DNA of 64,000 nucleotides from Candidatus Omnitrophota bacterium. Its GTDB lineage: Bacteria; Omnitrophota; Gorgyraeia; Duberdicusellales; 4484-171. The translations under genes and the position numbers were made by a program. The stretch spans positions 160,001 to 224,000 of the forward strand of contig JAIPGM010000003.1 of NCBI GenBank assembly GCA_021735655.1. Direction: 5' to 3'. Under the pieces are notes generated by a model. The model saw only the letters and a list, made by a program, of their open reading frames with translations, ran no database searches and was not told the origin of the DNA. Shown here piece by piece: positions 44,860 through 46,501 of this stretch (its first letter is position 1; each line of letters starts with the position of its first letter).

Positions 44860-45918
44860 ATGCAGTTAAAACAGATGAGAGGAAAAATTGATAAGATAGA
44901 CAAAAGAATAGTCGAGTTGCTTAACCAGCGGGCTCAGGAAGTAATAAAAATAAGCCTTCTTAAGAAGAAAAAGAAATTATCTCTTTATTCTCCGGAAAGA
45001 GAGGCTAGCATGCTTGAGTCTCTTAAAAAGCTAAGCCAGGGGCCTTTGCGTGGAGAAGATATTGAAAATGTTTTTCGGGAAGTTTTATCAGCCTGTCGTT
45101 CTCAGAAGGCCAATTTGGAGATTGCCTACTTAGGGCCTCAAGGCACTTTTACTCATCTTGCGGCAATAAAGAAATTCGGCAAAAGACCGGACTATCTTCC
45201 GGTAGCAAGTATTAGTGATGTTTTTGATGCCGTCGACAGAGACCAAGCGCAATACGGAGTTGTTCCGGTTGAGAACTCTACCGAAGGGGTAATTAACTAT
45301 ACTTTGGATATGTTTTTTGGCTCATCGTTAAACATTTGCGCTGAGATAACTATGAATATTTCGCACGCCCTCTTAGCTAAAGGGTCTGAGAGTATAAAAC
45401 GGGTTTACTCTAATCCTGAAGTATTTGCTCAGTGTCGAAACTGGATAGCTGCTTCCTTAAAGGATGTTGAGTTAGTTCCAGTTTCATCGACGGCTAAAGC
45501 GGCTAAAGAAGCTAAAAAAGATAAAAATGGTGCTTGTATCGGGAATAAAATTTTGGCCAATCTTTATGGTTTGAGAATAATAGCTTCTTCAATTCAAGAC
45601 TCATCAAACAATTACACAAGATTTTTGGTAATTGCTAAAAATGATAGTCCACCTTCTGGTAAAGATAAGACCTCTATTTTGTTTTCAACTAAAGATAAAG
45701 TAGGGGCTTTGCATGATATTTTGTCATCGTTTAAGGCTTCGGGCTTAAATCTTACTAAAATAGAGTCTCGGCCTTCTAAGAAAAAAGCCTGGGAGTACTA
45801 TTTCTTTGTCGATTTTCAAGGACACAAGAGCTCTGCTTTGGTTAAGAAGTCTTTGAAGAAATTAGAGAAACAATGTTCCTTTGTTAAACTTCTTGGTTCT
45901 TACCCCTGTGAAAATTAG
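44860..45918 (+). CDS. pheA: Bifunctional chorismate mutase / prephenate dehydratase (P-protein)
   Basis: 352 aa. N-terminal chorismate mutase helix pair, PDT domain (YLGPQGTF), C-terminal ACT domain. Confidence 0.85.
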   Translation: MQLKQMRGKIDKIDKRIVELLNQRAQEVIKISLLKKKKKLSLYSPEREASMLESLKKLSQGPLRGEDIENVFREVLSACRSQKANLEIAYLGPQGTFTHLAAIKKFGKRPDYLPVASISDVFDAVDRDQAQYGVVPVENSTEGVINYTLDMFFGSSLNICAEITMNISHALLAKGSESIKRVYSNPEVFAQCRNWIAASLKDVELVPVSSTAKAAKEAKKDKNGACIGNKILANLYGLRIIASSIQDSSNNYTRFLVIAKNDSPPSGKDKTSILFSTKDKVGALHDILSSFKASGLNLTKIESRPSKKKAWEYYFFVDFQGHKSSALVKKSLKKLEKQCSFVKLLGSYPCEN

Positions 45919-46501
45919 CCTGTTAGTTGAGGCGTTAAAAAATATTAAGGAGATAAAAATCAAAAAAAGCTTTACTTTAATTGAATTAATTGTAGTCATC
46001 GCAATCATTGCCATTTTAGCGGCGATCATTGCACCGAATGCTTTTCGAGCAATTGAGAAAGCTAAAATATCTGCCACAGTTCAGGATTTTAAATCTTTTA
46101 AAACTGCGACTCAGGCTTATTATGCTGATGTTGGAAAGTGGCCTTGGGAGGGCGCAGTTTGGAATCCACCCAATTGGGACACCAGCAATGGCGAAGGGTA
46201 TATCAACAATGATGGTGCCTCAGGTTGGGATGGACCTTATTTGGAAGGTTGGCCAAAAGCCAATTGGGGTATGGATTTTGTTTGTTATTATTATTTGAGT
46301 GATTGGGATGCAGATGGGATAGCTGAAAGTCATTTTGTTTCAATTCGCAAGAATGCCTTCGTTACTCCTACAGGCAATTCTACAGCCTTGCCAGAACATG
46401 TTCGACAAAGGATAGATGAGATTCTTGATGACGGAGATTTGGATACCGGAAAACTTCAGATGGCTAGCGATTTGTATTTTGACTATCTACTAGTTAGATG
46501 A
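45881..46501 (+). CDS. Type IV pilin / pseudopilin-like protein, paralogue 2
   Basis: The mature-like N-terminus [28 protein letters not shown] is near-identical to paralogue 1; GWDGPY and DDGDL motifs are shared. The track start (ATG 45881) overlaps pheA by 38 nt. An AAGGAG RBS (45947-45952) lies 6 nt before an ATC at 45959 that aligns with paralogue 1's ATG, so the true start is uncertain (ATG 45881, GTG 45908 or ATC 45959). Confidence 0.75.
   Translation: [206 protein letters not shown]

What the first reader, a model, noticed from the sequence alone, without database searches (positions are those of the whole stretch)
45881..46501. Second pilin paralogue inserted in the aromatic amino-acid operon; ambiguous start, possibly ATC
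The gene sits between pheA and hisC-aroF-tyrA. Its mature-type N-terminus matches the pilin at 6717 almost residue for residue over ~45 aa. The nucleotides differ at many synonymous sites, which points to old paralogues under purifying selection rather than a recent duplication. An AAGGAG RBS is placed 6 nt before ATC AAA AAA AGC, exactly parallel to GAGGAG-5nt-ATG AAA AAA GTA in paralogue 1. The only in-frame ATG (45881) and GTG (45908) overlap pheA and lack an SD. This is either a rare ATC initiation codon or an unusually long leader (~21-30 aa).
Basis: seen in the sequence. Interest (0 to 1): 0.5.

Follow-up and report, generated by a model that had tools for sequence, protein, structure and literature searches.

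The report
Pilin gene starting at ATC
A pilus-subunit gene that some Omnitrophota carry inside their aromatic amino-acid operon has ATC where its relatives have the ATG start codon, so it is probably translated weakly from this rare start codon, as a scattering of pilin genes in other bacteria also appear to be.

Summary
The ORF is a GspG-like type IV pilin or pseudopilin between pheA and hisC-aroF-tyrA in a Candidatus Omnitrophota MAG. Among 121 homologues, 86 have 4-5 residue leaders and MKKS is the commonest. The syntenic orthologue has AAGGAGG, a spacer, then ATG at the homologous site. So 45959 is the ancestral start. ATC is not an assembly error, because an independent contig from another sample carries the same ATC and SD. 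NCBI annotates GTG 45908, which lacks an SD and lies inside pheA. TTG 45881 is absent from the sister allele.

Pattern scans found at least 18 distinct intact pilin genes in several phyla with ATA, ATT or ATC at the canonical start and no upstream in-frame alternative. Four belong to this same pilin family. One Clostridia pair (ATC versus ATA) has dN/dS 0.25.

I favour SD-driven initiation at ATC (about 0.5). Reinitiation at GTG (about 0.25) would give the same mature protein after leader cleavage.

The gene is a patchy insertion, absent from the four closest pheA relatives. It is also mosaic: 99% identical to a contig whose pheA is 79% identical. New member of a known kind; moderate interest.

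The parts
44860..45918 (+). pheA (bifunctional chorismate mutase / prephenate dehydratase with an ACT domain). Its last 38 nt overlap the open upstream extension of the pilin frame.
   Evidence: Pfam CM_2, PDT and ACT. Identical to P0122, annotated as prephenate dehydratase in a Candidatus Omnitrophica MAG.
45881..45883 (+). In-frame TTG. As a start it would give a 30-residue leader. It is unlikely to be the start.
   Evidence: Sequence and ORF list. No SD. The sister allele L009 has TCG here.
45908..45910 (+). In-frame GTG, the start chosen by NCBI annotation (197 aa, 21-residue leader). It lies inside pheA, 8 nt before the pheA stop codon.
   Evidence: P0001 = MCF7907970.1, 197 aa. No SD upstream.
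45919..45958 (+). 40-nt pheA-pilin spacer. It is 28 nt longer than in the syntenic orthologue L001 and holds no promoter-like or terminator-like site.
   Evidence: Junction comparison. Promoter/terminator scan.
45947..45952 (+). Shine-Dalgarno AAGGAG, 6 nt upstream of the ATC.
   Evidence: Sequence. AAGGAG or AAGGAGG(T) at 4-10 nt precedes the ATG of about 12 genes in this window. L001 has AAGGAGG at the homologous place.
45959..45961 (+). ATC at the ancestral start-codon position. This is the proposed near-cognate initiation codon.
   Evidence: Homologues begin MKKS/MRKG/MNKS exactly here. L001 has ATG here. ATC is also present in the independent contig L009.
45959..46501 (+). Proposed prepilin CDS (180 codons plus stop). 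It encodes a GspG-like type IV pilin or pseudopilin.
   Evidence: Pfam and NCBIfam hits. AF2 model with pLDDT 91.4. Best fold matches are PulG/EpsG. 1763 homologues, mostly Omnitrophota.
45959..45970 (+). Four-codon leader (M)KKS. Prepilin peptidase is predicted to cleave before Phe+1 (45971).
   Evidence: Leader survey of 121 homologues: 4 aa in 55, 5 aa in 31, and MKKS commonest with 14. Cleavage itself is inferred from family knowledge.
45971..46045 (+). Conserved hydrophobic N-terminal helix [25 protein letters not shown] with Glu+5.
   Evidence: Invariant columns F5, T6, L7, E9, L10 and others in a 66-sequence alignment. Helix spans residues 7-58 in the model.
45890..46522 (+). Tract about 99% identical to contig L009 (6 differences in 633 nt). 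The 283 nt of pheA immediately upstream are only 78.8% identical. This is a recombination or transfer tract, and its 3' limit is unseen because the contig ends.
   Evidence: Alignment and difference positions.
46502..46529 (+). 28-nt spacer between the pilin gene and hisC.
46530..49491 (+). hisC-like aminotransferase (46530-47621), DAHP synthase (47625-48641) and prephenate dehydrogenase (48643-49491). These form the rest of the aromatic operon.
   Evidence: Pfam. Same gene order in L001 and in the pilin-less relatives L180-L186.
6707..7310 (+). Paralogue 1: GAGGAG (6707-6712), a 4-nt spacer, then ATG 6717 with leader MKKV|FTLIEL.
16811..17887 (+). PilT-like T2SSE-family ATPase. This is context: the genome carries pilus machinery.
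   Evidence: Pfam T2SSE, 1.6e-35.

Best explanation
**What it is**
The gene encodes a GspG-like type IV pilin or pseudopilin. It sits as a lineage-specific, recombination-prone insertion between pheA and hisC and is co-transcribed with the aromatic amino-acid operon.

**How it starts**
- Its ancestral ATG start (45959) has become ATC.
- Ribosomes are still recruited by the intact AAGGAG 6 nt upstream.
- They initiate with fMet-tRNA on the near-cognate AUC, at a fraction of the AUG rate.
- The product is a low-abundance prepilin, (M)KKS|FTLIEL....
- A prepilin peptidase then trims it to the mature Phe+1 pilin.
- The annotated GTG 45908 start is most likely an artefact of gene callers that accept only ATG, GTG and TTG.

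**Shown**
- The homology of the ATC to ATG in relatives.
- The SD.
- The reality of the ATC in two assemblies.
- The insertion and the mosaicism.
- The existence of intact, selected pilin genes whose only possible start is ATH.

**Inferred**
- That this particular ATC is the codon used.
- That expression is reduced.
- That the leader is cleaved.
For: 1. **Position.** 86 of 121 homologues have 4-5 residue leaders, and MKKS is the commonest. P0011 and P0012 read [10 protein letters not shown]. The syntenic orthologue has AAGGAGG, 5 nt, then ATG AGA AAA GGG TTT.
2. **SD.** AAGGAG with a 6-nt spacer matches the SDs of about 12 bona fide genes in the window.
3. **Not an error.** L009, from a different SRA run and with 4 substitutions inside the gene, has the same ATC and SD.
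4. **Alternatives are poor.** GTG 45908 and TTG 45881 lack an SD. TTG is TCG in L009.
5. **ATH-only pilin genes exist.**
   - The genome scan found 6 intact genes with no upstream in-frame start.
   - In the metagenome scan, 29 of 89 in-frame matches had none.
   - Four of these are Omnitrophota-type: L041 (ATA), L066/L148 (ATA), L100 (ATT) and L179 (ATT).
6. **Such starts persist under selection.**
   - Syntenic Clostridia minor pilins L046 (ATC) and L175 (ATA) are 73% identical, with dS 0.65 and dN/dS 0.25.
   - Marine alleles with ATA or ATT have dN/dS about 0.1.
   - One marine array has ATH at 4 of 8 tandem pilin genes.
7. **An upstream start is what chance gives.** In the genome scan, 6 ATH cases had no upstream in-frame start and about 5 ambiguous ones had one more than one codon upstream.
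8. **Literature.**
   - AUC initiates with Met at about 1-2% (0.02-3%) of AUG in E. coli (10.1101/063800).
   - The E. faecalis pilus tip protein EbpA uses ATT, and ATG is about 3.5-fold more efficient there (PMC4447247).
Against: - An in-frame GTG (45908) exists and sits 8 nt from the pheA stop, a geometry that allows termination-reinitiation without an SD.
- Long leaders (22-33 aa) do occur in some family members, such as P0010/P0041 and L061. A 21-residue leader is therefore not excluded.
- Near-cognate initiation is inefficient in the model bacteria tested.
- The window and L009 differ by 3 nonsynonymous and 1 synonymous changes in the gene. Purifying selection since the ATG-to-ATC change is therefore not demonstrated.
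- No relative of intermediate distance was found to date the change.
- I could not run a control on non-initiating single mutants (ACG/AAG/AGG) at pilin start sites, because the collection scans were exhausted and the viral set was too small.
- There are no expression data.
Confidence: 0.5

Rival explanations
1. Translation starts at the upstream in-frame GTG 45908, as NCBI annotates it. Ribosomes terminating at the pheA stop 8 nt downstream reinitiate there. The prepilin then carries a 21-residue leader ([21 protein letters not shown]), which the prepilin peptidase removes. After the ATG was lost, the gene was rescued by this fortuitous upstream start.
For: - The frame is open from 45881 to the pilin domain.
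- GTG overlaps the end of pheA by 11 nt, a common coupling geometry.
- The GTG is retained in L009.
- Real long leaders exist in the family (P0010/P0041, and L061 with 22-33 aa).
- The leader is lysine-rich next to the cleavage site, as the positive-inside rule requires.
- The mature product would be identical, so there is little selection against it.
Against: - There is no SD before the GTG.
- Orthologues have no such extension.
- The GTG is made of pheA codons (TGT GAA) and so is constrained by pheA rather than by the pilin gene.
- The perfect SD and spacing downstream would then be an unused relic.
- An upstream in-frame start occurs by chance in about half of comparable ATH cases.
- ATH-only pilins show that no upstream start is needed.
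Confidence: 0.25
2. The gene is effectively silent. It would be either a recent start-codon-loss pseudogene or an unexpressed pilin cassette, kept as raw material for recombination with expressed pilin genes.
For: - The ATG is lost.
- Pilin substitutions between the window and L009 are 3 nonsynonymous to 1 synonymous, consistent with neutrality.
- The gene is dispensable, since it is absent from the four closest pheA relatives.
- The tract recombines between lineages.
- Decayed ATH pilin remnants exist elsewhere, such as an 18-codon ORF found in 5 contigs.
- One intact pilin in the L138 array has neither a start codon nor an SD.
Against: - The 180-codon ORF is intact, and every family-invariant residue is present.
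- The SD is intact.
- The allele is shared at 99% identity by two lineages whose pheA genes are about 21% diverged, which is unexpected for a dead gene.
- Classical silent cassettes (Neisseria pilS, from general knowledge) lack the RBS and the conserved N-terminal coding region. Both are present here.
- Three to one in 4 substitutions has no statistical weight, and pilins are often under diversifying selection.
Confidence: 0.15
3. Initiation occurs at another in-frame codon. The candidates are TTG 45881 (30-residue leader) and the near-cognate ATT 45944 (leader MKEIKIKKS, with GAGG 11 nt upstream).
For: Both codons are in frame. GAGG at 45929-32 is a weak SD-like element.
Against: - TTG 45881 is TCG in L009 and has no SD.
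- ATT 45944 has a weaker SD at a long 11-nt spacing, and it has no counterpart in homologues.
Confidence: 0.04
4. The ATC is a sequencing, assembly or consensus error, and the real genome has ATG.
For: The window is a metagenome-assembled genome. A single G-to-C error would suffice.
Against: - The same ATC is present in an independently assembled contig from a different run (SRR28370467) carrying a distinguishable allele.
- The identical 197-aa product is also recorded from a Logan assembly.
Confidence: 0.02

Closest known systems
Enterococcus faecalis EbpA (sortase-pilus tip protein) with an ATT start codon (Montealegre et al. 2015, PMC4447247)
   Same: - It is a pilus subunit gene whose functional start is a rare AUH codon 9 nt after a recognisable RBS.
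- Automatic annotation mis-called the start.
- The rare codon is conserved among strains.
- It lowers subunit abundance: ATG is about 3.5-fold more efficient in a lacZ fusion.
   Different: - It is a Gram-positive sortase-assembled pilus, not a type IV pilin.
- There the annotated alternative was downstream, which removed the signal peptide. Here it is upstream and adds leader residues.
- EbpA was proven by mutagenesis. This case is not.
infC (IF3) and pcnB of E. coli, the classical AUU-initiated genes (general knowledge; cited in PMC4447247 and in Hecht et al., 10.1101/063800)
   Same: A near-cognate AUH start with a normal SD, read by the initiator tRNA and discriminated against by IF3. The result is low or IF3-responsive expression.
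   Different: The codon is AUU rather than AUC. Those are housekeeping and regulatory genes with demonstrated autoregulation. No regulatory logic is shown here.
GspG / PulG / EpsG major pseudopilins of type II secretion
   Same: - Class III signal peptide.
- Long N-terminal helix plus a small beta-sheet.
- These are the best fold matches (5wda, 3fu1, 4lw9).
- Pfam T2SSG is hit.
- A conserved C-terminal D-x-x-x-D-D-G-x-L-x-x-G motif is reminiscent of the GspG calcium site. This last point is inference.
   Different: - It scores 55 bits against the TIGR01710 cut-off of 88.85.
- Foldseek gives only E 0.02 and TM 0.37-0.47.
- It is about 45 residues longer, with a Trp/Tyr-rich insertion.
- It sits alone in a biosynthetic operon rather than in a gsp cluster.
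Type IVb pilins and other pilins with long leaders (15-30 residues)
   Same: If GTG 45908 were the start, the leader would be 21 residues, which is within the type IVb range.
   Different: - The homologues of this gene have 4-5 residue leaders and Phe+1, which are type IVa/GspG-like features.
- The extension has no counterpart in orthologues.
Silent pilin cassettes (pilS) of Neisseria (general knowledge)
   Same: A pilin sequence without a canonical start codon that takes part in recombination.
   Different: pilS copies lack the promoter, the RBS and the conserved N-terminal coding region. All of the RBS and N-terminal coding region are intact here.

Membership tests
Type IV pilin-like proteins (prepilin-type N-terminal cleavage/methylation domain; PF07963 / TIGR02532) | The profile match to the N-terminal methylation motif exceeds the curated cut-off. 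| tested here: met
   PF07963 scores 29 bits against 21.2. TIGR02532 scores 22.7 against 16.3.
Type IV pilin-like proteins (prepilin-type N-terminal cleavage/methylation domain; PF07963 / TIGR02532) | A short basic leader, a small residue at -1, Phe at +1, Glu at +5 and a hydrophobic helix of about 20 residues. | tested here: met
   (M/I)[28 protein letters not shown]. In the family the -1 residue is S in 44, G in 44 and A in 27 of 121. F5, E9 and others are invariant.
Type IV pilin-like proteins (prepilin-type N-terminal cleavage/methylation domain; PF07963 / TIGR02532) | Pilin fold: an extended alpha-1 helix packed on an antiparallel beta-sheet. | tested here: met
   AF2 model with pLDDT 91.4, helix at residues 7-58 and strands at 106-113, 123-130, 166-169 and 173-179. 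Top fold hits are pseudopilins.
Type IV pilin-like proteins (prepilin-type N-terminal cleavage/methylation domain; PF07963 / TIGR02532) | Processing by a prepilin peptidase and assembly by a pilus or T2SS machine encoded in the genome. | tested here: inconclusive
   A PilT-like ATPase lies in the window at 16811-17887. No peptidase A24 gene was looked for beyond the ORFs scanned, and the rest of the genome was not available.
GspG, T2SS major pseudopilin (TIGR01710 equivalog) | The whole-protein score exceeds the equivalog cut-off. | tested here: not met
   55.2 bits against a cut-off of 88.85, despite the NCBI name 'GspG'.
GspG, T2SS major pseudopilin (TIGR01710 equivalog) | Location in a gsp operon with GspC-M. 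| tested here: not met
   The neighbours are pheA and hisC-aroF-tyrA. Other family members also sit as singletons or pairs in unrelated contexts.
Genes with a near-cognate AUH initiation codon (infC, pcnB, ebpA type) | The AUH codon lies at the position homologous to the AUG of orthologues, with an SD at functional spacing. | tested here: met
Genes with a near-cognate AUH initiation codon (infC, pcnB, ebpA type) | The AUH codon is conserved in independent strains or assemblies. | tested here: met
   The window and L009 (SRR28370467) both have ATC. Only two alleles are known, and they are 99% identical.
Genes with a near-cognate AUH initiation codon (infC, pcnB, ebpA type) | No canonical in-frame start could produce a functional product. 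| tested here: not met
   GTG 45908 (and TTG 45881 in the window only) are in frame with no intervening stop. This lowers certainty but does not exclude ATC use.
Genes with a near-cognate AUH initiation codon (infC, pcnB, ebpA type) | An experimentally determined start (mutagenesis, N-terminal sequencing or start-site profiling). | not testable with these tools
   The organism is uncultured and no expression data are accessible.
Silent pilin cassette (pilS-like) | Lacks the RBS and the conserved N-terminal coding region. | tested here: not met
   The SD AAGGAG and the full N-terminal region are present.

The most novel reading that the evidence does not exclude
ATA, ATT and ATC start codons paired with strong Shine-Dalgarno sequences may be a recurrent, selectively maintained way of throttling particular type IV pilin paralogues across distant phyla. 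The groups seen here are Omnitrophota, Clostridia, Elusimicrobia, PVC-type lineages and an unbinned marine lineage in which 4 of 8 tandem pilins use ATH. On this reading the window's ATC pilin is one instance. Standard gene callers would then systematically truncate, extend or miss these genes. In addition, the ATC allele may have spread by recombination between Omnitrophota lineages whose pheA genes are about 21% diverged, which would imply that it is advantageous.
Probability: 0.35. Interest if true: 0.6.

Novelty: new member of a known kind. Interest (0 to 1): 0.42.

Why it matters
- **Annotation.** The deposited protein (197 aa, 'GspG') probably carries 17 spurious N-terminal residues. Related ATH-start pilins are truncated to fragments lacking the signal peptide, or missed altogether, by gene callers that allow only ATG, GTG and TTG. 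Examples are the truncated calls in L041 and L138.
- **Biology.** Pilus fibres need very unequal amounts of major and minor subunits. A weak start codon on a strong SD is a simple, heritable way to set a low level. The one precedent I found is EbpA, which belongs to a different pilus class.
- **Evolution.** The locus shows a pilin gene behaving as a mobile, recombining cassette inside an otherwise rigidly conserved housekeeping operon of an uncultured, possibly host-dependent phylum in which pili are thought to mediate cell-cell attachment (PMC10066038).

Tried and rejected
- **Exact-protein look-ups.** Look-ups of the window's pheA and of P0001 found no contig on record.
- **Close relatives in JGI metagenomes.** A search with the pilin C-domain gave 214 pattern hits, none confirmed by tblastn. 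No intermediate relative is available to date the ATG-to-ATC change.
- **Control for mutational noise.** I wanted to compare ATH with non-initiating AVG codons at pilin starts. In viral contigs the ATG pattern gave only 9 hits, ATH gave 0 and AVG gave 2, and both AVG loci were also among the 9 ATG-pattern hits. That is far too few to use.
- **RNA structure around the start.** The MFE fold pairs the SD with CUUCUUGGU in the pheA 3' end, which would suggest coupling. The fold is no better than shuffles (z = 0.5, centroid different), so I dropped it.
- **Frameshift or slippage routes to a start.** Both other frames have stop codons within a few codons upstream of the A-run (TAA 45954-56 and TAA 45946-48, read). 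Rejected.
- **PheA-pilin fusion by +1 frameshift.** Considered, since the pilin frame is +1 relative to pheA. I rejected it as biologically implausible, and no shift-prone site is evident.
- **Functional link between an aromatic-rich pilin and the aromatic operon.** The pilin has 14.2% F+W+Y against 8.5% in background proteins. The whole family has 12-15% wherever it is encoded, and the four closest relatives lack the gene. There is no support.
- **Rfam.** The window holds only 5 tRNAs, none near the locus.
- **Literature.** The searches found no report of AUH starts in type IV pilin genes. The search was limited.
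Full report
**1. What is in the sequence**

The window has 38% GC. Its best protein matches are all to Candidatus Omnitrophica/Omnitrophota MAGs. The reported ORF is open from 45881 to the TGA ending at 46501 on the + strand.

Its product has a prepilin-type N-terminus:
- PF07963 scores 29 bits against a cut-off of 21.2, and T2SSG 21.8 against 21.
- TIGR02532 scores 22.7 against 16.3.

Upstream lies pheA (CM_2 + PDT + ACT, 44860-45918). 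Downstream lie a class I/II aminotransferase (46530-47621), DAHP synthase (47625-48641) and prephenate dehydrogenase (48643-49491). Neither spacer contains a promoter-like or terminator-like site, so co-transcription with the operon is the simplest reading.

- The codon at 45881 is TTG, not ATG. No in-frame ATG lies upstream.
- GTG 45908 is as described.
- AAGGAG lies at 45947-52, followed by ATAAAA, then ATC AAA AAA AGC from 45959.
- In paralogue 1 the arrangement is GAGGAG, AAAA, then ATG 6717, a 4-nt spacer.

The two paralogues are 44% identical overall. They are 37/45 identical over the first 45 mature residues, with about 16 synonymous differences in the first 35 codons. The N-terminal identity is family-wide, however, and not specific to this pair.

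**2. Where the start ought to be**

A search of 5.8 billion proteins gave 1763 homologues.
- Among the best 121, leader length is 4 residues in 55 and 5 in 31. The commonest leader is MKKS, with 14 cases.
- P0011 and P0012 begin [10 protein letters not shown]. Others begin MRKG, MNKS, MRKS or MKRT.
- The only syntenic orthologue lineage is P0002, at 62-63% identity. Its locus L001 runs ptsH-ptsI-NTP transferase-pheA-pilin-hisC-aroF-tyrA-cmk-lepA.
- There the pheA stop is followed directly by AAGGAGG, CAATC, then ATG AGA AAA GGG TTT ACT CTG ATT GAA.

The ATC at 45959 is thus the positional homologue of the family's ATG, and its SD has been retained. NCBI's annotation (MCF7907970.1, 197 aa, 'GspG') starts at GTG 45908.

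**3. Is the ATC real?**

The 90% cluster of P0001 has a second member, P0121, from a Logan assembly of a different run, SRR28370467. Its 940-bp contig, L009, has the same AAGGAGATAAAAATC.

Within the gene it differs from the window at four positions: 46109, 46349, 46354 and 46474. Three are nonsynonymous and one is synonymous. Two further differences lie outside the gene, at 45934 and 46502. It is therefore a distinct allele, independently sequenced and assembled. Sequencing error is effectively excluded.

In L009 the TTG at 45881 is TCG. That candidate start is not conserved.

**4. Can ATH be a pilin start codon at all?**

I scanned for GGAG-N4-9-ATH-ARR-ARR-N3-6-TTYACNYTNATHGARYT.

*Representative genomes (185,579 species).* There were 48 hits. 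Six are intact pilin ORFs with a stop codon upstream and no in-frame ATG, GTG or TTG:
- a Bacilli MAG (ATT, 411 codons);
- three Elusimicrobia, including the isolate Elusimicrobium simillimum Sma112 (ATA);
- a Clostridium MAG (ATC);
- L041 (ATA, 183 codons), whose product [36 protein letters not shown]... belongs to the window's own family.

*JGI/ENA metagenome contigs.* There were 114 stretches and 89 in-frame matches:

| Class | Matches |
|---|---|
| Ordinary M-I-K-K leaders | 39 |
| No upstream in-frame start | 29 |
| In-frame start more than one codon upstream | 21 |

The 29 include three more Omnitrophota-type genes: L066/L148 (ATA, 199 codons), L100 (ATT, 200) and L179 (ATT, 184).

*Evidence that these are maintained genes rather than noise:*
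- L046 (ATC) and L175 (ATA) occupy the same place in syntenic Clostridia pilus operons. They are 73% identical, with dS 0.65 and dN/dS 0.25.
- Marine alleles with ATA or ATT have dN/dS about 0.1.
- Contig L138 carries PilT, a prepilin peptidase and eight tandem pilins. Four have ATH at the canonical start, three of them behind strong SDs. The three ATG genes have weak or no SD.

Decay also occurs. An 18-codon remnant is present in five contigs.

*Literature.* AUC initiates with methionine at about 1-2% (0.02-3%) of AUG in E. coli (10.1101/063800). E. faecalis EbpA uses ATT, and ATG is only about 3.5-fold more efficient there (PMC4447247).

**5. Weighing ATC against GTG**

For ATC:
- It is homologous to the family's start.
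- It has an optimal SD. AAGGAG-type SDs at 4-10 nt precede about 12 genes of the window.
- ATH-only starts recur in the same family.
- In the genome scan, 6 ATH cases had no upstream start and about 5 ambiguous ones had one further upstream. An upstream in-frame start is therefore what chance gives, not a requirement.

For GTG:
- It lies 8 nt before the pheA stop, so terminating ribosomes could reinitiate without an SD.
- It is present in both alleles.
- Genuine 22-33 residue leaders exist in some family members (P0010/P0041, L061).

Against GTG:
- It has no SD.
- Orthologues have no counterpart.
- It is made of pheA codons.

The leader is removed, so both routes give the same mature pilin. 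This probably explains why the ATG loss is tolerated. I put ATC at about 0.5, GTG at about 0.25, a silent gene or pseudogene at about 0.15, other codons at about 0.04 and error at about 0.02.

The local RNA fold is not informative (z = 0.5).

**6. What the protein is**

The AF2 model built on a 66-sequence alignment is confident, with pLDDT 91.4 and pTM 0.84. It has a 52-residue N-terminal helix and a small sheet. The best PDB fold matches are PulG and EpsG, but weakly: E 0.02, probability 0.94, TM 0.37-0.47.

It fails the GspG equivalog cut-off, with 55 bits against 88.85. I therefore call it a GspG-like type IV pilin or pseudopilin, not GspG.

It is rich in Trp, Tyr and Phe, at 14.2% against 8.5% in housekeeping proteins of the window. 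So is the whole family, at 12-15%, wherever its members are encoded.

A PilT-like ATPase lies at 16811-17887. Omnitrophota commonly encode type IVa pili (PMC10066038).

**7. The insertion and the mosaic**

Other close homologues of the pilin sit in unrelated contexts.

The four closest pheA relatives are 87, 83, 81 and 78% identical to the window's pheA. All have the same cofD-ptsH-ptsI-NTP transferase-pheA-hisC-aroF-tyrA-cmk-lepA order, but pheA abuts hisC with only 4-13 nt between them and no pilin. The pilin is therefore a patchily distributed insertion, seen in the window, L009 and L001 lineages.

L009 is also sharply mosaic:
- Its 283 nt of pheA are 78.8% identical to the window, with 41 synonymous and 11 nonsynonymous codon differences. 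They are no closer to any other known lineage.
- From 45890 onward, 633 nt differ at only 6 positions.

A chimeric contig would need the divergent lineage to share at least 31 identical bases at the junction. The homologous segment differs at several positions in all pilin-less relatives, so this is unlikely. Recombination or transfer of the pilin tract is the better reading. It still rests on a single 940-bp contig that ends in a Nextera adapter sequence.

**8. Verdict**

The ATC is genuine and marks the ancestral start. The deposited GTG start is doubtful.

The case is a probable new member of the small class of AUH-initiated genes, and its closest precedent is the pilus protein EbpA. It is not categorically new, and computation alone does not prove the codon actually used.

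The wider pattern, recurrent ATH starts in type IV pilin paralogues, is the more interesting lead. It needs the census and controls listed under next steps.

Noticed in passing
L009:1-940 versus window 45607-46522: Sharp mosaic. The pheA 3' end is 78.8% identical (60 differences in 283 nt, mostly synonymous). From 45890 on, only 6 differences fall in 633 nt. This suggests the pilin tract was exchanged between lineages that are species-level diverged. L009 ends in a Nextera adapter sequence (CTGTCTCTTATACACATCT).
   Followed up: partly
L180:1189-1194; L181:5059-5072; L183:5059-5069; L185:5059-5073: The four closest pheA relatives (78-87% identical) have pheA directly followed by hisC with no pilin, while the rest of the 10-gene synteny is unchanged. 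The pilin is a patchy insertion or deletion.
   Followed up: yes
L138:2000-6700 (- strand); also L124: A marine metagenome contig carries PilT, a prepilin peptidase and eight tandem pilin genes. Four have ATH at the canonical start (ATC, ATA, ATT, ATA), three of them behind strong SDs. Three have ATG with weak or no SD. One intact 157-codon pilin has neither an SD nor any start codon. This lineage did not appear among the GTDB representative genomes.
   Followed up: partly
L046 (- strand, ATC at about 2586) and L175 (- strand, ATA): A syntenic fourth pilin gene in Clostridia type IV pilus operons starts with ATC in one species and ATA in the other. Both have stops upstream in frame. The pair is 73% identical with dN/dS 0.25, so a near-cognate start has been conserved.
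   Followed up: partly
L012:6267, L014:7133, L037:6326 (+ strand); L074: Elusimicrobia pilin-like genes, including one in the isolate E. simillimum Sma112, have ATA or ATT starts behind AAGGAG-type SDs and their own promoter-like upstream regions. They are only about 30% identical to each other beyond the N-terminus.
   Followed up: partly
L041:3157-3717 (- strand): An Omnitrophota-type pilin in a MAG labelled Planctomycetia has ATA as its only possible start. The mechanical ATG/GTG/TTG ORF list shows only a 132-aa internal fragment. It is followed by a normal ATG-start paralogue.
   Followed up: partly
Homologues P0001-P0121 (protein N-termini): In this pilin family the residue before the predicted cleavage site is Ser as often as Gly (S 44, G 44, A 27 of 121). 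Val occurs in the window's paralogue 1 and Phe in P0003. This is unusual against the textbook Gly-1 rule.
   Followed up: no
window 45971-46498: The mature pilin is 14.2% Phe+Trp+Tyr (8 W, 9 Y, 8 F in 176 residues) and is encoded inside the aromatic amino-acid operon. The enrichment is family-wide (12-15%), so the co-location is probably coincidental.
   Followed up: yes
L061:4270-5591; P0010, P0041: Two adjacent Omnitrophota pilins have genuinely long leaders (22-33 residues). P0010 and P0041 share a conserved leader motif, FTPLEKN[FY]..K..R[FS]LTG, before FTLIEL. It resembles a degenerate second pilin N-terminus.
   Followed up: no
L083, L113, L121, L139, L155: An identical 18-codon pilin remnant, IKKIYFTLIELLVNMSHI*, with ATA after AAGGAGG occurs in five contigs, including one from a human gut assembly. 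It is a decayed example of the same start-codon state.
   Followed up: no
window 45885-45953: In the MFE fold the SD region (AUUAAGGAG) pairs with CUUCUUGGU in the last codons of pheA, which would couple SD exposure to pheA translation. The fold is not better than shuffled sequences (z = 0.5).
   Followed up: yes
window 45907-45909: PheA ends ...YPCEN* in the window and L009. All five other lineages have ...YPRE[SN]*. The Arg-to-Cys change lies inside the exchanged tract.
   Followed up: no
window 2899-3158 and 40074-40323: Five tRNA genes are the only Rfam matches in the window. None is near the locus.
   Followed up: no
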